From contig NW_027590302.1 in NCBI RefSeq assembly GCF_964213995.1, forward strand, positions 124,001-188,000: a stretch of 64,000 nucleotides of DNA, read 5' to 3'. The first letter of the stretch is position 1, and every line of letters starts with the position of its first letter. This DNA is from Mustelus asterias (lineage: Eukaryota). Below, piece after piece: positions 1-42,900 of the stretch. The notes beneath the pieces are model-generated. The model searched no databases. It was not told where the DNA came from and saw nothing but the letters and a program-made list of their open reading frames with translations. Position numbers and translations under genes: made by a program.

Positions 1-707
1 TATTCATCGCAAAAAACACCAAATTATATCACTGAGGGATTCAAACACGTTTCATTTAGAAGCAGTTCAATTCTACAATTGATTTCCAGCAAAATCAAAT
101 GCAACATTGCAAGGAAATCTCAATCTCGAATCTACCAAATCCATCTGCTACCAAGTGAATGGATAGTTTAGCAAAACATAAATATCAGCATTGTGGGTAA
201 GCGGGACAGGTACAGTAAATTAATATAGAAAACTCAGTATATTTTGTTAACATTGGGTAAGTTTACAAATACTTATACTGTTGATGATACAACCTGCAGC
301 CATCAGATGACACTAGATTAAACCTCGTAAAAACGCCAAACGGTTTACGATGCTTGGGGAACTGGTGACATAGTGGTACTTTCACTGGGCGAGTAATCTC
401 GAGACCCAGGGAAAGATCTGGAGCCCGAGATTTGAAACAAATGGAGGTAGAACAATAAAACAATAAAACTCTGGAATTATCCCACATCCCATCGGAGATT
501 ATTTTCTAAATAAGCGACACAGTATCCTCAGCAGATAAATACCAAATCACAAGAAAGGAATGAATTCCATAACCCCTTTTCAGCAGAATCACATTGCTAA
601 AATTTCTCAGTTCAGATTCCACAAAACCCACATTACAGGTAAAACAGATAAAAATATTGAACAAAAACATAAATGAAGCTGTTACCGAATAAATGCATGG
701 TTCTTAC

Positions 708-755
708 CTACAGTCACCACCACCATGGTCCCTTTTCCCCAGTCGCCGAATAAAT
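708..755 (-). CDS. IGHJ: Immunoglobulin heavy-chain J segment (LFGDWGKGTMVVVTV), unrearranged
   Basis: Minus strand ATTTATTCGGCGACTGGGGAAAAGGGACCATGGTGGTGGTGACTGTAG encodes the WGxGT motif; phase-1 donor GTAAG at 707-703; RSS directly 5'. Confidence 0.95.
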
Positions 756-794
756 CACAGTGTTACAATACCTGGGCTGGGTCATACAATAACC
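756..794 (-). promoter_or_regulatory. 23-spacer recombination signal sequence of JH
   Basis: Heptamer CACAGTG 756-762, 23-nt spacer 763-785, nonamer ACAATAACC 786-794 (plus-strand reading; 8/9 to consensus). Confidence 0.95.
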
Positions 795-1110
795 GTCCCT
801 GCTCAGAATAGACAGATATCGACAATTACTTTAAATATTCACAAAATCTACCAAAGTAAAGTCACCATGAATTTTCATATAATTGCAGCTTTTATATTAT
901 TTCTTCTTCATAATTGGCACAAATATTTTAGATTTCATAGAAGAACACGTGAGCATGTTATTGTAAACTGATAACTGAATTACTCTGACAGATCTCCCAT
1001 GTTAAAATGTGCTATTTGACGAGTGTTGGACATCAACAACCCTTCTCTGCAAATAGAGTTGGGTTGTAAAACTGAGCACCGACGCAATCTCAGTCGATTA
1101 CTGCTGAGGA

Positions 1111-1138
1111 GCTTTTTGTATTGAGAGAAATTGCTGTG
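1111..1138 (-). promoter_or_regulatory. 12-spacer RSS 3' of the pre-joined V-D
   Basis: Minus strand: CACAGCA (1138-1132) + ATTTCTCTCAAT (12 nt) + ACAAAAAGC (1119-1111). Confidence 0.88.
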
Positions 1139-1647
1139 ATACCCGGTAATCACTACCACTGCTGTGTCTTGCACAGTAATAGTTGGCGGTGTCTTCAATC
1201 TTCAGATTGTTCATTGTCAAAGCGAAAAAGTTGTTTGAAGTGTCTTTGGACGCAGTAAATCGGCTCTGAAGGATTGGGGAGTACCGTTTATCCGATGGAG
1301 AATAGTAGTGAACCAACCACTCCAGCCCCTGTCCGGGAACCTGTCGGATCCAGTGCATGACGTAACGATCAAGATCGAAGCCGCTGGTTTTACAAGTCAG
1401 TCTCAGGGAGCCACCGGGACGCCCGCTCTCTGCTTCTGGCTGAGTCAAGATAACCTCCGACTGGACACCTGTGTAAATATATATTTAAAAAAACACGAGA
1501 ATTAATCCTGGTGAAATGATTCCTGTTTCTGGAACATGCCAGAGATAGACTAACAATGAGACAGTAACAGTGAGAGACTTGGACAATAAAAAACTACTCA
1601 CCGGATAAGAAAGTCAGCAACAAACTGAGAGAAATCGCCGACCTCAT
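1139..1647 (-). CDS. IGHV: IgM-type VH gene: leader exon 1647-1602, V exon 1468-1167, fused in frame to D-like junction 1166-1139
   Basis: Leader [15 protein letters not shown](G), GTGAGT donor, 133-bp intron, ACACAG acceptor, then [76 protein letters not shown], typical of shark IgM VH frameworks; no stops; continues HSSGSDYRV up to a 12-RSS. Confidence 0.93.
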
Positions 1648-1738
1648 CTTTCTGGTCATTTTAGGGAAATGGTTGTGTCAGGAACTCAGTGAACAAACCA
1701 GCTCCCGGAGACTGTAGGATTCCGGTCCCGTGAGTGGC

Positions 1739-29729: not shown

Positions 29730-31288
29730 CTCCTCCCACAAAACACGTCAGCGCCTCCTGTAGTGTTTTTATCGGTACCAGAGCACATGATACCTGTGGC
29801 TGTCTGTGCAGTGTGAATCGGGCAAAACCATAAATTCTTTCTGCAAAGAGGCTGCTGACGGCAAACTTTAATAATTTGCGTAAAAATAGCACGGACCTTC
29901 GAACAGTCAATGTTCAGCAAACTGAAATATTTTTAGATACTGGGAACATCTAGAACTTCCTTCATCATTCAATTATAGAATGATATCATTCAGCACATCG
30001 TGCCTCGGTGGCCACTTTTGCAGAGTTACCAATTTATTATCATTCCACTGTGCCTACACGACTGCCTTGCTAATGTTTCCATGGCTTTAGTTGTCCAATT
30101 CATTGTTGACATTTACTATTAACTCTTCTTCCACAAGTCTTTCAGAGTATATTCCATATGACAACAAATCACATTGTAAAGCAAATGCCTGCTCAAATTG
30201 CCGCTGGTTCTTTCTCAAATGCCATGCCTTTCAATGTCAGTCATCTGGTGACAAACCTTCTGCCATTAGGTGCCACGTTTCCTTATTTATTCAACTGGAA
30301 TAACTGTCAATATTAATCAAATATTATCTCAAACTTCCTTGTTCGACAGCGAAGAGTCCCACTTTCTCCAATATTTCAATATATATAGGCCCGCATCTTG
30401 CACAAGATCCTCAAATCATTAATCAAATATGGTGCACACAATAATCTAATTTAGACAATATCGATGGTGTAGGAATCGCTGGGTATGTGGTAAATTAATG
30501 CGTGGATGTTGTCAGTGGAAGGTGTGATATTGTAACCTGATCATCACTTTCTGGACTGAGGGAAGCTGCCTGTTCTGAGGCTCCGGCATTCTGCTCAAAC
30601 ATGTAACTGAGTTCCCGCAAACCCCCTCAGGGTGTTGCTAAAGGAAAGGGGCACTACAGAAATAAGAGCGGAAATAATACCATCCAATAAAATCACATTG
30701 ACCGATCTCCCAACTCACTACTGCGGGGAAAAGAGGGTGGGAGCTTCCACTGACAAAACAACGCCATCTCCTATCTCCTGTACAGCAGCCTAACGTGGGT
30801 GGGATTTTGAAACGCAGCTCACAGATCCAAGGAAACGATGAATGTCAGCTCACTCATTAAAACTGACCGTCATTCATACAATATAGCATAAGAAACTGCA
30901 GGTCCGTACGCTCCATCAAAGGTCTCGTGAGCACGGCCCTCTTCCACTCAACTACAGACCATAGAATATTCCAAAAATGCGGCTCGCAACAGCCAGGGAG
31001 GCGGTGGGGGGGGGGGGGGGGGGGGGGCGGGCGGTGCGGTGGCAAAATGATTTTGGAAGCTCCAAGGCAGAAATAGCGGTCGTGGATAATGGACTGAATA
31101 TTAACAGATGAGCGTCGCATTTGAATCCTCAAGTTTTTTTTCGTCGTGAACTTTGGCTTTGGCACAAGTTACCAGTGCTCGGGTTTGAAGTATTTCAGTG
31201 CAGCTCTGAAGTTCAGTCTCCCAGAGAAGCGCAGGTCTGCAGTCTCCAGCTCCCGGTCATCTGATCATTTGTTCCAGGCAGCAGAACG

Positions 31289-31316
31289 ATGGGAATCCTC
31301 TTTGTTTTCACCCTGA
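31289..31316 (+). other. Candidate signal-peptide mini-exon (MGILFVFTL) downstream of a CpG/G22 block
   Basis: ACGATGG start context, hydrophobic codons, consensus donor GTGAGT at 31317; no intact downstream coding exon identified. Confidence 0.35.
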
Positions 31317-32254
31317 GTGAGTACCGAGTTTTCAGATAACAGGATTGTCCAATGTGAATAAATTGAGTAGCCCGGGCCTTTAATCCTAGAATTGGGAGGA
31401 ATTAGAGGTACACTCATTGAAACACACAATATTATTAAGTTGTTGATAGAACAGATACGTGGCCGATATATCCAATCTGTGGAGTCTATAACTTGATGTC
31501 ACAGTTTCAGAATAAGGGTACAGACATTTGAACCCAGAAGAGAGGAATGTCTTCAATCAAACCACTGTTGTGAATCTGTAGACTCTATCCCACAGAGAGT
31601 TGTGGATTATCATTGCAGGGTGTATGCAAGGCTGTATTCGATTGATAGTTGGATATTAAAATAATCCAAGGATTTTGAGGACAATGTAGAAAGTTGTTGG
31701 TGAAGTAATAGATCATCCACGTCATTCCTGAATGGCAGAGCAGCTTCGTAAGTTGGTCGGACCGCTCCTACTTCTATCAGTTAGAATTTTCCGACTCTCG
31801 TTATGCACATATAAGTAAAGAAATCAGCAACATTCCACATCTCACTGAAAGGTGTAACGTGCTGAGTCTCTCTTCTCTGGAGAATGGAGAACCGGGAGGA
31901 GGATACGCAGACATGACTTAAATTATGGATGGGTTCAATGGAGTGATTGTGGAACTATTGTTTATTTGTGGGTAATCTCCAGAGCATTGGGCCATGAACA
32001 TGTTATCGTCACGAACAGAAACGTTATTAAAAGGTATTAAAATGAAGGAATTTAAACAAAGAGACGTCAGAATTTAGAACTTGTTGCCACCCCGCGTGTT
32101 TGGACCAGGGTGTACTGATACATTTATGGGTAAGTTTGAAACGATAGACCAATACAGGGTGTGTGAAATGGGCAATTAGATTACTGGTGGGGGCTGAATA
32201 GTATGGAGTCTACACGTACATGAATCTGTTGAACTGAATGAGCGATCCCTCTTC

Positions 32255-32600
32255 TGCAGCTTCAGTACAATGTACAACTTAGAGAATACTCTGCCCAGAG
32301 TTCTCGGGAGAGGATGATTTGATGGACAGAAATAATTGAAATTGCCAGAGAGCCGGAAGAGGCAGCACCCAGTGAGTAACAATAAAACCACTGCGGAAGC
32401 TGAACATTCTGATCCCAAACGACAACTGAGAGACTTTGGGACAAGTTCCCGCGATTGCAAGAACCCCAACCACCATAAAGTCAAACTAGGAATCAAAATA
32501 ATAAAAACTGTAGATATTTCAAATCCCAGAAGCAGGGAGAAAATTGAATTCACTCAACAAATAAACAAATAGAGAAAAAGGCTGATAGCAACTGCCTGAA
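32255..32600 (+). repeat. Exon-like segment, inverted paralog of 36950-37288
   Basis: Shares GAAATTGYCAGAGAGCCGGAAGAGGCAG..CCCAGTGAGTAACA.TAAAA.CACTGCG and weaker flanking similarity over ~340 bp. Confidence 0.8.
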
Positions 32601-33046
32601 AATATAACATCCTTCGTGGAATCATACAGCGCTGAAGGATGAAATACGGCCTTTGATTAGATACTGTCCTTTTAAAGGTCTAATCTAATTATTTCCGCTC
32701 TCCATGCATTGCTCTGGAGCGTTGACCCTATTGTCTTCCTTCCCCAGCACTGAGCAATTATCCGTTTGAACGTTACTGTTGACCATATTCACCCTTCATT
32801 CCAACAGTGCTTTCCAGATCGTTGTTTAAAATAGAGCATCACCTGATCCTTTACCGTGTTATATTTCATCAAAATTAAATACAGTTAGAAAAGGTTACAA
32901 ATCAATAGAACTGCCAGGAATGCCAAAACAAAAATAATCCAAATAACATGATTCCCCATGGAAACAATAACTAAACAAACAATAATATCCGATTTTTAAT
33001 CTCCAGTCAGATTACAGACGAGTGTCGGCAATCCTCATCATGTGCA

Positions 33047-33085
33047 GGTTTATGTGCAGCTCTCTCCGTGTTCTGCATCACTGTG
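33047..33085 (-). promoter_or_regulatory. Distal 23-RSS (tandem duplicate)
   Basis: Minus strand CACAGTG (33085-33079) + 23 nt + ACATAAACC (33055-33047). Confidence 0.85.
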
Positions 33086-33107
33086 TCTGTAATCCTCACT
33101 ATGTTCA

Positions 33108-33147
33108 GGTTTTTGCACAGATCTCTCCGTGTTACTGTGTCACTGTG
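33108..33147 (-). promoter_or_regulatory. Proximal 23-type RSS of the TCR-delta V
   Basis: Minus strand CACAGTG (33147-33141) + 24 nt + GCAAAAACC (33116-33108). Confidence 0.85.
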
Positions 33148-35442
33148 CTGTGTGCCGACTCAGTGCGCAGTAATAATTAGCAGAGTCGTTCAGTTGCAAT
33201 TTCGAGATTTCTAACCGGCTGATCTTCTCGGCAGAATCGATATAAATTCTAGGCTGACGAATGGGGTTTAACTGAGATAGATGCGATGCATTTCGGTAGA
33301 TTGAACCAGGGCAGGACTTACTCAGTTAATGGGGGGGCGTTGGGGACAGTTACAGAACAAAGAGATCTCGGGGTACATGTTCATAGCTCCTTGAAAGTGG
33401 AGTCACAGGTGGAGAGAGTGGTGAAGAAGTCATTCAGCATGTTGGTTTCATTGGTCAGAACATTGAATGCAGGAGTTGGGACGTCTTGTTGAAGTTCTGC
33501 AAGACATTGGTAAGGCCACACGTGGAATTCTGAGTACCGTTCTGGTCACCCTATTATAGAAAGAATATTATGAAACTAGAAAGAGTGCAGAAAAGATTTA
33601 TTAGCATGCGACTGTGACTTGATGGTTTGAGTTACAAGGAGAGGCTGGACAGACTGGAATTTCTTTCTCTGGAGCGTAGAAGGCTGAGGAGCGATCTTAT
33701 AGAGGTCTATAAAATAATAGAACATGGAACATAGAAAAGCTACAGCACAAACAGGCCCTTTGGCCCACGAGTTGCGCCGAACATGTCCCTACCTACTAGG
33801 CTTACCTATAACCCTCTATTTTACTAACTTCCATGAACTTATCCAAAAGTCTCTTAAAAGACCTTATCGAATCCGCCTCCACCACCGGCAGCCGATTCTA
33901 CGCACCCATCACCTTCTGAGTGAAAGACGTACCCCCCACATCTCCTCTGTACCTACTCCCCAGCACCCTAAACCTGTGACTTCTTGTGGCAACCATTTCA
34001 GCCCTGGGTAAAAGCCTCTGAGAATTCACTCTATCAATACCTCTCAACATCCTATACACCTCTATCAGGTCACCTTCGCCTCTCCACGGAGAAAAGACCC
34101 AGCTCTCTCAACCTATCCTCCTAAGGCATGCCACCTAATCCAGGCAACATCCTTGTAAATCTGCTCTGCACCCTTTCTATGGCTTCCACATCCTTTCTGC
34201 AATGAGGCGACCAGAACTGGGCACAGTACTCCAGGTGAGGTCTGACCAGGGCCCTATACAGCTGCAGCATTATCTCCATATTTCTGAACTCAATTCCTCT
34301 ATTGATGAAGGCCAGTATTCCATACGGCTTTTTAACCACAGCCTCTACCTGCGACGCTGCTTTGAGCGTCCTATGAACCCGGACCCCAAGATCCTTCTGA
34401 TCTTCCACACTGCCAACCGTCTTACCCTTAATGTTATATTCTTTCATCTGATTCGACCTAATGAGGGGCACAGATCAGCTAGATAGTCCATATATTTTCC
34501 CAAAGGTAGGAGAGTTTAAAACTAGAGGGCATAGGTTGAAGGTGAGAGGGGAGAGATGCAAACGTGTCCAGAGGGGCAATGTTTTCACACAGAGGTCTGG
34601 AACAAACTGCCAGAGGTAGTAGTATAGGCGGGTACAATTTTGTCTTTTAAAAGCATTTGGACAGTTACATAGGTAAGATGGGTATAGAGGGATATGGGCC
34701 AAACAGGGCAATTGTGATTAGCTTAGGGGTTTTAAAAAAAAGGGTGGCATGGACAAGTTGGGCATTCCCCACCCTCTGTGTGAAAAAATGCCCCTTTGGA
34801 CACTTTTGAATGTCTCCCCTCTCGCCTTAAACCTACGCCCTCTAGTTTTAGACTCCCCTCCCTTTGGGAAAATGTATTGATTATCTAGCTGATCTGTGTC
34901 GCTCATTATTTTATAGACCTCGATAAGATCACCCCTCAGCCTTCTATGCACCAGAGAAAAAAGTCCCAGTCTATCCATCCTCTCATTATAACTCAAACCA
35001 TCAAGTCCCGGTAGCATCTTAGTAAATCTTTTCTGCACTCTTTCTGGTTTAATAATATCCATTCTATAATAGGGTGACCAAAACTGAAAACAATATTCCA
35101 AGTGTGGCCTTACCCATGTCTTGTACAACTTCAACAAGATGTCCCAATCCTGCATTCAATGTTCTGACCAATGAAACCAAGCATGCTGAATGCCTGTTTC
35201 CATGCTGTAAACCTCTATGACTCGATGACTCTAAGCAGAAATGATCCCCCCGGCAGCATTTTCTTTACTTGCCGTTCCTGAAGTGTGTGTCTGAAGCAGG
35301 CATTTCGGAGTCTGTCCTGGGGACTGACTGTGCCAGTGTGTTATGTACTGACAAGTTCCTGAATATTCACATCGTAGAGCAACCGTGTCAACGGCAGCAG
35401 AGGTTTGAAGGGGCGGGTTCTTGGACACGAGGGAACTGGAAT
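33148..35442 (-). pseudogene. TRDV: TCR-delta V segment of the NAR-TCR supporting type, split by LINE insertion (5' part 35442-35234, 3' part 33244-33148)
   Basis: Joined halves read without stops: xSSSLVSKNPPLQTSAAVDTVALRCEYSGTCQYITHWHSQSPGQTPKCLLQTHTSGTASKENAAGGIISAYIDSAEKISRLEISKLQLNDSANYYCALSRHT; canonical C/W/YYC, extra CDR1 Cys, phase-1 acceptor TCCTCCAG, RSS at 3' end. Confidence 0.88.
33246..35231. mobile_element. Composite CR1 insertion: + fragment, nested - CR1 (~33719-34458), inverted piece (~34765-35193), + 3' tail
   Basis: CR1 RT C-terminal peptides on both strands; outer element resumes after the nested copy; TAA shared at both outer junctions. Confidence 0.88.
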
Positions 35443-35746
35443 CTGGAGGATTTTAAAAAATGGAGTGTTTATGCACTTTTCTACCCGTGCAATGTGGAAA
35501 GCACGGGAACAAATCTATTCTTTTGCGGTGTTGCTATTATATTAAATCTGATGGAACTATATTCACTGTTATTACAATACAAACCAGTGAGGACTGACGT
35601 GATATTTTATATTACACAGCAAGTATTTCTGATCTGGATTGCACGATTAGAATGAGTGGTGGGAGCAGATTCAACAGTGAATTATTAACTGGTTATGATT
35701 AAGTACTGGCACAGGAAAGGTAAACAGCGTTATGGGGAAAAATCAT

Positions 35747-36616
35747 AGAACATAGAACAGTACAGCACAGAACAGGCCCTTCGGCCCACGATGTTGTGCC
35801 GAGCTTTATCTGAAACCAAGATCAAGCTATCCCACTCCCTATCATCCTGGTGTGCTCCATGTGCCTATCCAATAACCGCTTAAATGTTCCTAAAGTGTCT
35901 GACTCCACTATCACTGCAGGCAGTCCATTCCACACCCCAACCACTCTCTGCGTAAAGAACCTACCTCTGATATCCTTCCTATATCTCCCACCATGAACCC
36001 TACAGTTATGCCCCCTTGTAATAGCTCCATCCACCCGAGGAAATAGTCTTTGAACGTTCACTCTATCTATCCCCTTCATCATTTTATAAACCTCTATTAA
36101 GTCTCCCCTCAGCCTCCTCCGCTCCAGAGAGAACAGCCCTAGCTCCCTCAACGTTTCCTCATAAGACCTACCCTCCAAACCAGGCAGCATCCTGGTAAAT
36201 CTCTCTGCACTCTTTCCAGCGCTTCCACATCCTTCTTATAGTGAGGTGACCAGAACTGCACACAATATTCCAAATGTGGTCTCACCAAGGTCCTGTACAG
36301 TTGCAGCATAACCCCACGGCTCTTAAACTCCAACCCCCTGTTAATAAAAGCTAACACACTATAGGCCTTCTTCACAGCTCTATCCACTTGAGTGGCAACA
36401 TTTAGAGATCTGTGGATATAGACCCCAAGATCTCTCTGTTCCTCCACAGTCTTCAGAACCCTACCTCTGACCCTGTAATCCACATTTAAATTAGTCCTAC
36501 CAAAATGAATCACCTCACATTTATCAGGGTTAAACTCCATTTGCCATTTTTCAGCCAAGCTTTGCATCCTATCTATGTCTCTTTGCAGCCTACGACAGCC
36601 CTCCACCTCATCCACT
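35747..36616 (-). mobile_element. Young 5'-truncated CR1 LINE with 6-bp TSD
   Basis: Near-intact ORF end (..HTRMIGSGIA), AGAACAT tail, AATCAT on both flanks; near-identical to 52045-52542. Confidence 0.93.
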
Positions 36617-36949
36617 AATCATGGGCATTAGGAAGTGTTGGAATTCATTTATAAAGGGGCAACATCTACCAGAAGGGCCGAATGTCATTCCACCGCGCTG
36701 TGTGATCCTATGATGTATTCGACATTTCAGTTTATATTTTCCTTACTGACAGACAAACACGAGGGAAAGTTGATTATCAGTGAGGCAATCTGTTTCCAGA
36801 AATGATTGTCCGAGGGTAGCCCAGCGGTGTTCCATCACTGAGCAGACCAAGATCCAACAGAGTATTAATGTGATTCATCAGCTCCAAAGGGGCCGAACGA
36901 TGCTGCACATCGATGTCAAATGTCATTTATTTATTTCGGTTTCATACTT

Positions 36950-37288
36950 CCTGGGAGTCTATGCTTCCCTTTTCATCTCCTTGTTTATCTTCTACTTACG
37001 CGAAATATTGTTTCTCGCTTTCGATTGCAATAGAAATATTTATAGTCAGTTTCATTTTATTTCTACATTCACTTTGTGTTGTTTGGGTGTCTTGTAATCA
37101 TGGGAACACATCTCTCTGTTGTCGGTTGAGTTCAGTCTGTTCATTTTTCGCAGTGATTTTACTGTTACTCACTGGGAACTGCCTCTTCCGGCTCTCTGAC
37201 AATTTCAAATCTTTCTGCACACTAACATTCTGTCCCTGATTCTCTGGGCAGAGTTTTTTCTGAGTTTTACATTCTGCAGAATCTGCCG
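36950..37288 (-). repeat. Exon-like segment, inverted paralog of 32255-32600
   Basis: Same core as above; donor GTGAGT at 37172-37167 faces the TCR-delta V exon. Confidence 0.8.
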
Positions 37289-38584
37289 AAATAGAATATA
37301 CCATTTGGCCTGTTCGCGGGAGAGACTCTCAAAGAAATCACTCAACGCTCATGGTTGGTCCTCGCATCAAACGATTTATTTTCGCCGGCGGGGAGATGGC
37401 TTCTGCTTAACCCAGTGCCTCTCTCCGACGAACAAGGGAAAAACATCCATTCTTATACATTTTTCAAACATCTCCACAGCCGATCACGGCTGTACCTCGT
37501 CCAATAACATTGATTGCAGATTACATACAGCAGTCACATATCCAATTAAAAAGGTGGTTTTGTGCATCATCAGTTCGACTAATGGACACGACTCATGGTA
37601 CCTCAGTCAATATTATCTTTCTTTCTCCCATCAGGAGTTCTTGAGTGTAAAATACTCCTTGTACAGTGCCATTTCACGAGACAGGGGCAACGGTGACAGA
37701 ATTAGCAATTGTTGCATTTACCTTGAACTTAGAGGATTGCTCGGCTATTTCAAAGGAGAGTTAAGAAGCAACCACTCGTGGAGTGGCATTTAGGACAGGG
37801 CAGGCAACGATGGTACATTTCCTTCCCGATATAATAGAGTTCGGCAGAGGCGTTTCCCAACAATCAATTATAGCTTCATGGCTTCATAGCTTATCATCTC
37901 CCATGACTGTTCTCCCTAATCCTCCGCGTCTGGTTTTCATCCGAGGCCTCAGATCATAGACTGGTACAAGTCAATAGTATGTGTGGTGTATTGTACACAA
38001 GTTTATGCTTGACCCAGCTAATGGTGTTCAGGAATGTGGGTAAAAGCTAGCATTCATCTTGTGTCGTATTACTATCCTGAGCTCCTGTTAACATGGTGGA
38101 GATTACATGCATGCCCTTTGTGATCATATAACAGGAAATACATACATATTTATTATATGTTATTTATTCCCACTAATATAAATTGCTATACAGGTACCTT
38201 TGAATATAAATTGTTATACAGGCACCTAAACCAAGGATATTGTTTCCCCTAAACCTGTTCTTCAAATCTCCCTGCAACAGGAACCCCAAGTTTAATATTA
38301 AAACTAGATATAAAACTAATGTTAAGAATATCGAATTATTCTCAGTAACGTCTGATAGGGTGTTGCATGTCTGCCTGTACGGTACATCTTCTATCCTTAG
38401 TACATTTGAGAACAAAAGCTGAATTCCGATAGGGAATGTTTGAACACAAATCAGATTTAATACACATAAAAATCGAAGTGAACAGTGATGGGAGAGGCTG
38501 AAGGCAAGCGTGATGAGAAGGAGATGCTGGTGCGGTGGTAATGTCACTAGACTGGCAGTTGAGATGCGCAAACTACACCTTGGA

Positions 38585-39969: not shown

Positions 39970-42900
39970 TCATTTAACCAGGTGGCATAGTACATTCAGG
40001 GAGTCTTGGAGCAAAACCTTTAACTGATCCCTGAATTTACTTTGAGTTACAGCATAAATAAATGTGTTTGTGCAGCAACTCAAAAGCTGGAGCATATTTG
40101 AAGACTCAATGAGGATAAATTTGGGGTCACTGAAGCCATTGACTTTATAATCATTCGTCAATCGCTCATACAAGAACTGTATAACATACGTCATCCAGAG
40201 GAGGATGAAACTACCAGAAATAGCGAACAGTAAGACAATGGACTTCCTGCGGCATTCCATTTCTGGGTCATTATGTTTCGCTCCATTGTTTTTGTCCCAG
40301 AGTCTCCTGCGTGCTTTATTAGCCACCAGAATGTTCCTCACAGTCAGTGCATTAAGCAAAACAATCAGAAGAAATGGGAGACATGGGGTTAAAAGATGAT
40401 CGAACCAATCAAATGCTGTCCAGGCAGGAGAAGTAAAACGGATATAATTAAGTCTGCAATACCAGGGTACATTGTCAACGATGTAGAAAGGTTTGTGTAT
40501 AAAGTACCAAGGAATATTGGTTAAACAACCCAGTGCACAGATCAATCCTATGACAATAGCTGCTGTTTTTTCGGTGCAATATTCTGTTTTCAGCTTCTGG
40601 CAACAAATGGCGACAAACCTATCAAACGTGAAAGCGACTGTTAACCAGACAGAGCAGACCCTGGCTGCATACGTCAGTGCAATATTGACACTACACACTG
40701 GAGTGATGGACAAAAAACTACCTGGAAAATAAATACCAGGAATTCGGTTTAATATTACAGCGGTAACAATGACCCAGAGATCTGTCACTGCCATAAATAC
40801 TAGGTACCGAGTAATGCATCTGGAGAGACCACATCTTCCGCTGGACAGGATCACAATCGTCACTATGTTCACTGTAGGGAAGACGGGGAGAAGATGATGA
40901 ATGGTTAAATAATACACACAAAAGAGCAGTAAACATATCGGTAAGAATTCCATAAATGTAATAGCTCCAGTACTTGAAGTGAGGAGAACTGTTACAACCA
41001 ACCAAGAAGAAGGTGAGGTGGGCACAGGCTCACATATAATCGACGCACAGTATTCAATCAAGGGGAAACAGAAAACAATTAATAATTGCTGGCGATTCCG
41101 TTTTTATATGTCGATTGTATAATGATGAATCAAGTAGATGAATGACAGGTGCATGAAATTATAACACAATTACAAGTAAGTACACGTAAAAGGCAAAGTA
41201 CCAGATGAAATAAACATTTCACCAATCAAAAGAAGATTATAAGACTTTATTTGGCTGCAACCAGCGCTCTCGTGACCTCCATCTCCAACCCCATCCTCGC
41301 CACAGAAATGTTTCTCAATAGGTTAGAACCGCTTTACTGTTAGAACCTCAACATCTCTTTGGCAGAGCCACGAACCACAATCAATACCGAATCAATTAAG
41401 CAATCCAAGTATCGTTGTAAACATGATATTGACCTGAGCTTCAGGCCTGCAAAGCCTTCTTCAATTCAGCGATTAATTTTTATTCCAATCATTAGATGGG
41501 AGCAAGTTATTTATTATCAAGTAAAGGTGAAGAGAGAAAACAATGAACAGTGGGCTGGTTAGTCTAATCCAGTGGTTCCCAAAGGGCGCGGTGCGCCACA
41601 CTGGTGCGGCGAAAGAGGATGGCAAGTGTGGCGGGAAGATTCAAGGACAATCAAAGAAACATTTAAACATGGATAGATATTTTTCCAAAGTGAGAGCAAA
41701 AGCATCATGTGATGCTGAGGACGATCCGACTCCACGTTGTGATCCAGAATCGCCGTTCGAACAGAGTGCTGAAGAAGAGTCGTTTAATTCTACACCAGTA
41801 GCAGGCCCAAGCAAACCTCTAAAAAAGAAAGTTTGTCGGCAATATATGGATAGCTATCTGAGTCTCGGTTTCACATGGACTGGAGATGAAAACGTACCTC
41901 GGCGTACGTGTTTGATCTGTGGTGAGAAGCTTTCCAATACCAACATGGTCCCAAGCAAGATGAAAAGACATCTGTTTGCAAAACATGGAAATCTGGCAAA
42001 CAAGGATGTTCAATATTTTGAAAAGCTTTTGGAACAGCAGAAATGCAAACGATCATATTTCGAAAAACGAATGACAATCTCAGATAAGATGCAGATTGTA
42101 TCTTACGAAGTGACTGAATTGATTGCTCAACAGGCAAAGCCACATAAAATAGCTGAAAAATTGATTCAGCCTGCCTGCAGCTTGATTGTGAAAACTTTGT
42201 TTGGTGATGATGCTGAGAGAGAAGTTACGGAAATTCCTTTGTCTGATAATACAATTCGCAGAGGAATAGTTGATATGTCAGCTAATATTGAGAAGCGTGT
42301 TTCCGAAAGTTTATGAAGACTTCTAAATTTGCCATTCAAGTTGATGAATCGACTGACATTAGTGGAAAAGCACAGTTGCTTGCCTATATCAGATTCATTC
42401 ACAATGACGAAATAATCACACAGTTTCAATTTTGCAAGGAACTTGAAAAACATACCAGAGGACAAGATATTTTCCAAACCTTGTCTGAGTATTTGGAAAA
42501 AGTTGAGATTTCATGGGATTCTTGTATTGGAATTCGTACGGATGGAGCGCCATGTATGATAGGGAATGTGAGAGGCTTGGCGGCACTCAGCAAACAGAAA
42601 AATCCAGATGTAATATCAACTCACTGTTTTTTACACAGAGAGGCATTAATCACCAAGACCCTTGTCGCTGATTTGAAGTTGGTTCTCGATCAGACTGTGC
42701 GCATTGTGAACTTCATCAAAGCAAAACAACTAAACGCGTGGTTATTTGCTCAACTCTGCAAAGACATGGAATCAAAACATCAGTGTCTAATTCTGCTCTC
42801 GGAGGGTCGCTGGATGTCCCGTGGAAAAGTTTTAAATCGGGTGTTGGAACTGAAGAACGAATTAAGAGAATTTTTGGAACAAGAAGGGAACCCATTGTAC

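What the first reader, a model, noticed from the sequence alone, without database searches (positions are those of the whole stretch)
33148..35442. Hidden NAR-TCR supporting V-delta split by a LINE
Seen: removing 33245-35233 restores an uninterrupted V domain (..GGIISA|YIDSAEKISRLEISKLQLNDSANYYCALS) with a splice acceptor, no nearby leader exon, a CDR1 Cys (GTCQY) and a second extra Cys (PKCLL). Known: a leaderless V with a CDR1 cysteine defines the V that supports the NAR domain in NAR-TCR. Inference: inactivated by the insertion with the frame otherwise intact, and orphaned from its NAR V-D-J partner.
Basis: partly seen in the sequence, partly recalled or inferred. Interest (0 to 1): 0.8.

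Follow-up and report, generated by a model that had tools for sequence, protein, structure and literature searches.

The report
Dead shark T-cell receptor gene segment
A shark T-cell receptor gene segment of the kind that normally props up a second, antibody-like domain is split by jumping DNA, lacks its partner gene and is most likely a dead duplicate; that is ordinary, but its intact relatives sit in several separate receptor clusters, a layout I did not find described for sharks.

Summary
Observation confirmed. On the minus strand a V exon (35442-33148) is split by 1,989 bp of LINE fragments; without them the frame matches 18 intact paralogs. It groups with the leaderless, CDR1-cysteine 'supporting' V-delta of NAR-TCR: 57 of 68 family hits in this genome have a NAR V upstream. 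This copy has none. Corrections: the second cysteine is decay (Tyr in 18 of 18 intact peptides); five otherwise invariant residues are changed; the same insertion sits in four places in the assembly, so it is old, not a fresh knockout; and whether the LINE or the loss of the NAR partner killed the gene cannot be ordered. It is half of a decayed facing pair of cassettes beside an IgM cluster, much like entries listed for the great white shark. Verdict: ordinary pseudogene of a known family. More interesting, outside the window: 19 TCR-delta-like constant exons, three on one contig, several with their own NAR cassette, D and J, some with supporting V pre-joined to D, resembling marsupial TCR-mu clusters.

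The parts
35234..35442 (-). 5' half of the supporting V-delta exon, with splice acceptor, first canonical Cys, CDR1 Cys, conserved Trp and the derived second Cys
33148..33244 (-). 3' half of the V exon, to the coding end
   Evidence: weak V-set match E 0.014, below the curated cut-off
33108..33147 (-). First RSS: perfect heptamer, 24-nt spacer (23 in intact paralogs), one nonamer mismatch
33047..33085 (-). Second, stacked 23-RSS; a third decayed unit follows to about 33022
33245..33250 (-). Six bases matching the target site; possible remnant of a target-site duplication
   Evidence: family copies diverge from the insert here; target comparison
33251..33718 (+). First LINE, 5'-truncated ORF2 end, antisense to the V
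33719..34458 (-). Nested LINE of another subfamily, absent from the copy at C71:7.28 Mb
34459..34765 (+). First LINE, continued
34766..35192 (-). Inverted internal fragment of the same LINE family, 87% identical to the first arm
35193..35233 (+). 3' end and short repeat tail of the first LINE; puts an in-frame TAG directly after the 5' half of the V
35443..37311 (-). Remnant of the intron that joins NAR J to the supporting V in intact cassettes (about 73-76% identical); interrupted by a younger LINE at about 35747-36620; homology ends about 300 bp short of where J would lie
31093..31322 (+). Promoter and shortened leader exon (ATG 31289, donor 31317) of the NAR V of a second, facing cassette whose V, D and J are gone
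   Evidence: score 176 against a shuffled maximum of 33
32248..32605 (+). Intron remnant of the second, facing cassette; its supporting V is missing

Best explanation
This is a LINE-split V exon of the NAR-TCR supporting V-delta family with no NAR partner upstream, and it is most likely a long-dead pseudogene copied by segmental duplication. In intact cassettes of this genome a leader-bearing NAR V rearranges to its own D and J (layout shown; rearrangement inferred), the J splices to this leaderless V, and the V joins D-delta and J-delta through its 23-RSS to give a two-V delta chain. Here the NAR leader-V-D-J is absent, so there is no promoter, start or leader; the LINE puts a stop right after the 5' half; and the facing cassette lost everything but promoter, leader and a piece of intron. 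Inferred order: (1) loss of the partner and first LINE insertion, in unknown order; (2) duplication of a block of more than 50 kb into at least three paralogous copies; (3) further LINE insertions and drift in separate copies.
For: Family: top hits are NAR V-J plus this V in 4 of 5 models; the tree unites the split copies with 20 intact supporting Vs at 94/97, apart from NAR V, IgH-like V and other V-alpha/delta; 57 of 68 family hits have a same-strand NAR V within 20 kb upstream, and 0 of the 4 split copies do. Orphan: no NAR V by tblastn in 144 kb around the gene; local alignments of promoter, V, D and J upstream score at shuffle level; no NAR V and no delta constant hit on this contig. Dead: in-frame TAG at the junction; changes at positions invariant in 18 of 18 intact peptides (T32, Y36, Y46, S87, V91, numbered on the 97 aligned columns); V divergence between two copies (19 of 300) is close to that of the insert (93 of 1229); a sister copy carries a second LINE and a stop. 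Old: same insertion site at C270, C128, C71:4.61 Mb and C71:7.28 Mb. LINE: insert peptide 53% identical to the C-terminus of a 925-aa endonuclease/RT frame; read depth four to five orders above the flanks.
Against: Synonymous changes are somewhat more common than neutral drift predicts: 9 of 19 between two copies (P 0.039 by simulation), 8 of 13 on the window's own branch and 6 of 17 on the shared stem, against 27% expected and 43% (38 of 89) in intact paralogs. Both canonical Cys, the Trp and the CDR1 Cys survive. The tree's family branch (94/97) just misses the starred threshold. The genome searches score only the best 150 candidates. The founding paper was not available, so nurse shark sequences were not compared directly.
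Confidence: 0.88

Rival explanations
1. The gene worked until the first LINE landed in it, and the NAR partner was deleted afterwards. This is a sub-case of the best explanation that fixes the order.
For: The shared stem has 6 synonymous of 17 private changes, between neutral (27%) and intact (43%) values, as expected if part of the stem was still functional.
Against: All four copies share both lesions; the facing cassette lost its NAR V-D-J with no such insertion, so partner loss happens by itself here.
Confidence: 0.45
2. The split exon is still conserved for a purpose, for example as a donor for gene conversion into intact supporting Vs, or as an RSS substrate.
For: Mild synonymous excess; no stop or indel in the coding part of three of four copies; the second 23-RSS is near consensus.
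Against: Non-conservative changes at invariant framework sites; a stop-free outcome after 19 random changes is common (42% in simulation); the first RSS has decayed in two copies and one copy has a second insertion and a stop; the tests are post hoc on few changes.
Confidence: 0.06
3. It is a conventional leader-bearing V-alpha/delta whose leader was lost.
For: Conventional V-alpha/delta segments lie 19-24 kb beyond the window's left end.
Against: None of 26 intact family loci has a leader candidate in 1.5 kb upstream; the upstream DNA is homologous to the NAR J-to-V intron; the tree separates it from those Vs.
Confidence: 0.02
4. The split or its copies are assembly artefacts.
For: C270 and C128 are 99.9% identical over 30 kb and may be two haplotypes.
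Against: Two more copies on contig C71 differ by 5-9% in the insert and in their nested insertions; short-read contigs from public runs overlap both junctions, though by only 20-30 bases on the element side.
Confidence: 0.03

Closest known systems
NAR-TCR supporting TCR-delta V of cartilaginous fish (Criscitiello 2006, not held; features read in passages of PMC1845163 and PMC5931798)
   Same: Leaderless V with a CDR1 Cys and a 23-RSS; intact paralogs here follow a NAR V with an A-B loop Cys, a D and a J.
   Different: This copy is split, has no NAR V-D-J, has changed invariant residues and cannot encode the chain.
NARTCR and V entries, some marked pseudo, among IgM clusters of the great white shark (PMC12227049, section 6 and table S1)
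   Same: NAR-TCR-type V segments lying between IgM clusters in the antigen receptor complex.
   Different: The table gives no lesions or mechanism; each of its four species shows at most one entry that looks like a delta constant gene, against 19 exon hits here.
Marsupial and monotreme TCR-mu clusters (passages of PMC7615758, PMC3457774)
   Same: Two-V chain; repeated clusters each with a constant gene; partial clusters that lost the first V and D; supporting V pre-joined in the germline (marsupials).
   Different: TCR-mu uses VH-like Vs and is described as convergent; here the supporting V is delta-type, the pre-joined state is V-D only, and units also hold IgH-like Vs.
V pseudogenes broken by retroelements in antigen-receptor loci (general class, recalled)
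   Same: Birth and death of V segments with insertion, duplication and drift.
   Different: Nothing of kind; only the V family is unusual.

Membership tests
NAR-TCR supporting V-delta (gene family, by descent) | V-set exon with a 3' 23-RSS | tested here: met
   the first RSS has a 24 spacer, the second 23
NAR-TCR supporting V-delta (gene family, by descent) | No leader exon; begins at a splice acceptor (PMC1845163) | tested here: met
   none in 2.5 kb; 1 distant candidate in 30 family loci; 6 of 8 controls positive
NAR-TCR supporting V-delta (gene family, by descent) | Conserved Cys in CDR1 (PMC1845163) | tested here: met
   present here and in all 26 intact loci translated
NAR-TCR supporting V-delta (gene family, by descent) | Groups with V segments that follow a NAR V-D-J | tested here: met
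   only this genome's segments were compared, none from nurse shark
Working NAR-TCR cassette | NAR leader-V-D-J upstream in cis | tested here: not met
   only the intron remnant is left, so it is not filed as a working cassette
Working NAR-TCR cassette | Uninterrupted V exon | tested here: not met
   1,989-bp insert with an in-frame TAG
Working NAR-TCR cassette | Expressed as a two-V delta chain | not testable with these tools
   no RNA holder listed
Working NAR-TCR cassette | Disulfide between the CDR1 Cys and the NAR V Cys (putative in PMC1845163) | not tested
   no partner exists for this copy; no structure was predicted
LINE (non-LTR retrotransposon) | Derived from an endonuclease plus reverse transcriptase frame; 5'-truncated; short repeat tail; high copy | tested here: met
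LINE (non-LTR retrotransposon) | Target-site duplication | tested here: inconclusive
   6-9 target-like bases at the truncated end; a longer duplication would need a later 6-bp deletion
CR1 clade of LINEs | Placement by RT phylogeny or a repeat library | not tested
   the label CR1 is recalled from the tail and ORF2 end and comes from no call

The most novel reading that the evidence does not exclude
The orphan is debris of a larger change: in this shark lineage TCR-delta has multiplied into many self-contained clusters (NAR V-D-J, supporting V, IgH-like V, D, several J, own constant gene), with at least two old constant-gene classes and some supporting Vs already joined to D in the germline. 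Shark NAR-TCR would then have converged on marsupial TCR-mu in gene layout as well as protein shape, including partial clusters that lost the first V, and a T cell would have to choose among many delta loci, as shark B cells do among Ig clusters.
Probability: 0.5. Interest if true: 0.62.

Novelty: new member of a known kind. Interest (0 to 1): 0.3.

Why it matters
The split V itself matters little: it is one dead lineage among dozens of relatives and serves as a marker of the order of duplications. The setting matters more. If several delta constant genes each carry their own NAR cassette, the picture of one translocon TCR-alpha/delta locus in sharks does not hold for this lineage, exclusion among delta loci becomes a testable question, and cluster-specific constant-region differences give ready primers for it. 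[quoted passage not shown]

Tried and rejected
Second Cys as functional: rejected. Splicing out of the insert: the nearest GT lies after an in-frame TAG in the window copy; not tested on RNA. Inversion having moved the partner to the plus-strand remnant at 31.1 kb: rejected, each side has its own intron remnant and facing pairs are a recurrent intact unit. Genotyping: no RNA holder listed. No joint skipping the whole insert was among the 15 joints shown, 195 more were hidden, and junction overlaps were under the 31-base rule, so one search gives no verdict on empty alleles; organism B covered upstream intron and repeat, not the V halves. Pfam barely sees the halves (E 0.11 and 0.014) and not the insert peptide. 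PDB gave only generic antibody V domains (best E 5.6e-08). dN/dS does not separate neutral from constrained evolution; the pooled intact comparison was void through a length mismatch and was redone. The C71:4.61 Mb copy was left out of the tree and of full-length counts because its 3' half is split again. The paper search for 'TAILV' returned noise. Criscitiello 2006 (PMC1458790) and 2010 (PMC3222143) are not held. The constant-domain protein search returned only models of one species, so it says nothing on copy number in other sharks. No absolute date was attempted.

Full report
Observation. The feature is on the minus strand. A CAG acceptor precedes an exon that starts at 35442 and runs open to 35234, where a TAG follows in frame; the frame resumes at 33244 and ends in YYC, with heptamers at 33147 (24-nt spacer) and 33085 (23-nt spacer). 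Joined by coordinates in a script, the halves give a V with no stop or indel, colinear with 18 distinct intact peptides from 26 loci.

Family. The 5' half finds 68 places in the window's own genome (150 of 444 candidates scored). A protein search returned 5 hits at 75-79% identity, all gene models labelled Mustelus asterias; in 4 of the 5 a leader and NAR-type V and J are followed directly by this V family, and 4 of the 5 end in a constant domain. Two intact paralogs read in full have a NAR V with an A-B loop Cys, a D and a J 3-6 kb upstream. Matching coordinates, 57 of 68 family hits have a same-strand NAR V within 20 kb upstream; the 11 without are the 4 LINE-split copies, 3 hits with an internal stop, 2 partial hits, 1 at a contig end and 1 rearranged by inversion. 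A tree of 35 V peptides places the three full-length split copies as one clade (100/99) inside the supporting-V group (94/97), away from NAR V, IgH-like V and other V-alpha/delta segments. PMC1845163 (passages and figure legend read) gives the two defining marks, no leader and a CDR1 Cys. A leader scan found none within 2.5 kb of the window's V, one distant candidate in 30 family loci, and leaders at 102-148 nt in 6 of 8 control genes. The CDR1 Cys is in every intact copy. The family call stands.

The insert. It is a composite. A 5'-truncated LINE end lies on the plus strand (33251-33718, 34459-34765, tail to 35233); a 427-bp inverted fragment of the same family, 87% identical to the first arm, interrupts it near the tail; and a LINE of another subfamily (33719-34458) is nested in it. 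Public contigs of the family skip both additions. The inverted fragment's peptide is 53% identical to the end of a 925-aa frame with endonuclease and reverse transcriptase domains, and read depth over the insert is four to five orders above the flanks. Six to nine bases at the truncated end match the target rather than the family, a possible decayed duplication. The label CR1 is recalled, not tested.

Age and decay. The same insertion site occurs at C270 (the window), C128 (99.9% identical, perhaps the other haplotype), C71:4.61 Mb and C71:7.28 Mb, within blocks colinear over most of the window. The C71:7.28 Mb copy lacks the nested LINE; the C71:4.61 Mb copy has a further LINE and a stop in the 3' half. 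So the first insertion predates the duplications. Five positions invariant in 18 of 18 intact peptides are changed (T32, Y36, Y46, S87, V91), and R65 is kept in 17 of 18. The 'second extra Cys' is Y46C, shared by the split copies only. The Tyr after the junction is also derived: the sister copies keep Ser. V and insert diverged at similar rates between two copies (19 of 300; 93 of 1229). Against a plain neutral reading, 9 of those 19 changes are synonymous (P 0.039), 8 of 13 on the window's branch, and 6 of 17 on the stem, against 27% expected and 43% in intact paralogs. These counts are small and post hoc; I give the 'still conserved' reading 6%.

The missing partner. Homology to the intact J-to-V intron runs upstream to 37311 and stops about 300 bp short of the J. 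No NAR V was found in C270:84001-228000, and alignments of promoter, V, D and J to 35443-64000 score at shuffle level. A rhodopsin-family receptor frame lies at 39973-41100. On the other side, 31093-31322 is a NAR promoter and shortened leader on the plus strand, and 32248-32605 a second intron remnant. Facing pairs of cassettes are a recurrent unit elsewhere (C71:16.07-16.08 Mb, C786, C119, C108). The window therefore holds a decayed pair: one side kept only promoter, leader and intron, the other only intron and supporting V. No delta constant exon was found on C270 or C128. Since the partner supplies promoter, start and leader, its loss alone would silence the V, and all four copies share both lesions; 'inactivated by the insertion' cannot be shown.

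What is known. NAR-TCR is a delta chain with a NAR V on a supporting V-delta, each made by its own rearrangement (PMC5931798, passages). PMC12227049 (abstract, sections 6 and 15, table S1 read; its PDF supplement not read) reports TCR-type V exons between IgH clusters and lists NARTCR entries, one marked 'pseudo??', among IgM clusters of the great white shark. The window matches that: an IgM-type V-J and constant exons lie 32 kb or more downstream. Criscitiello 2006 and 2010 were not held. The finding is a new pseudogene of a known family in a known setting.

Beyond the window. A delta-type constant domain finds 19 exons, all open (33 of 33 candidates scored). Three lie on contig C71 at 7.14, 11.04 and 12.27 Mb, 96.9-98.6% identical, in blocks 93-98% alike with different upstream contents; the C119/C96 type is 89-90% identical to them. 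Units at C71:7.08-7.14 Mb and 12.22-12.27 Mb read NAR V-D-J, supporting V, IgH-like V, D (12/23), several J, constant. C119 and C436 read NAR V-D-J, supporting V already joined to D, J, constant; the same junction is in C119, C96 and C436 although their Vs differ. Two constant classes also appear as separate contigs in run X1 (6 and 23 differences) and in organism B (6 and 16), while X3 and X4 show one class. 'Delta' is inferred from the 12/23 D segments. Many of the 19 may be haplotypes or recent copies; the safe minimum is four to five genes. The layout resembles TCR-mu clusters, where partial clusters lacking the first V and D also occur (PMC7615758, PMC3457774, passages). Eight paper searches and one search of earlier findings showed no description of multiple delta constant genes in a shark, but the library lacks key papers, and expression of the units was not tested.

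Earlier findings. One search listed notes from other pieces of this genome on stacked RSSs, facing cassettes and pre-joined segments. I had seen these features before that look-up; the notes agree and did not change the reading. Nothing was noted near this place.

Verdict. Observation confirmed; interpretation partly supported; new member of a known kind; interest 0.3, most of it for the cluster layout that the follow-up exposed.

Noticed in passing
G000 genome-wide; C71:7138102, 11043420, 12270565; C119:572692 (L069, L091, L095, L101): 19 TCR-delta-like constant exons in at least two classes; several units have their own NAR cassette, IgH-like V, D and J.
   Followed up: partly
L010, L011, L014 (C119:553681, C96, C436:213728); also L016 and C71:11023780: Supporting V joined to D-delta in the assembly, with one junction shared by three contigs; L016 has another junction, and C71:11.02 Mb has a joined V of another family.
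   Followed up: partly
L018 and L090 (C122:392461-393463): Inversion that joins the supporting V to the NAR D through its 12-RSS; the matching unit at C71:12.22 Mb is unrearranged. Germline or lymphocyte origin unknown.
   Followed up: partly
window 700-1660 (-); C71:7317073-7317190: IgM-type cluster with V and D already joined and J separate; the near-identical copy on C71 has the same V-D junction and D joined to J as well.
   Followed up: partly
window 33022-33147; L005-L030: Supporting Vs carry 2-5 head-to-tail 23-RSSs at a 61-bp period wherever the V end is unrearranged.
   Followed up: partly
L106 (C110:85017-85071); L076, L078, L081, L089: NAR V joined to D in C110 while the identical cassettes on C71 and C115 are not; another NAR V subfamily carries a 12-RSS directly after the V.
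   Followed up: no
window 39973-41100 (-): Open frame of 376 codons matching the rhodopsin receptor family (7tm_1, E 1e-20); relatives lie beside other NAR cassettes.
   Followed up: partly
window 34766-35192: Inverted internal LINE fragment replacing a few bases of the element's 3' end, with short matching ends; looks like a template switch, present in all four copies.
   Followed up: partly
L061:5103-7880 (-): 925-codon open endonuclease/RT frame of a LINE whose 3' part closely matches window 35744-36617, so that family is young.
   Followed up: no
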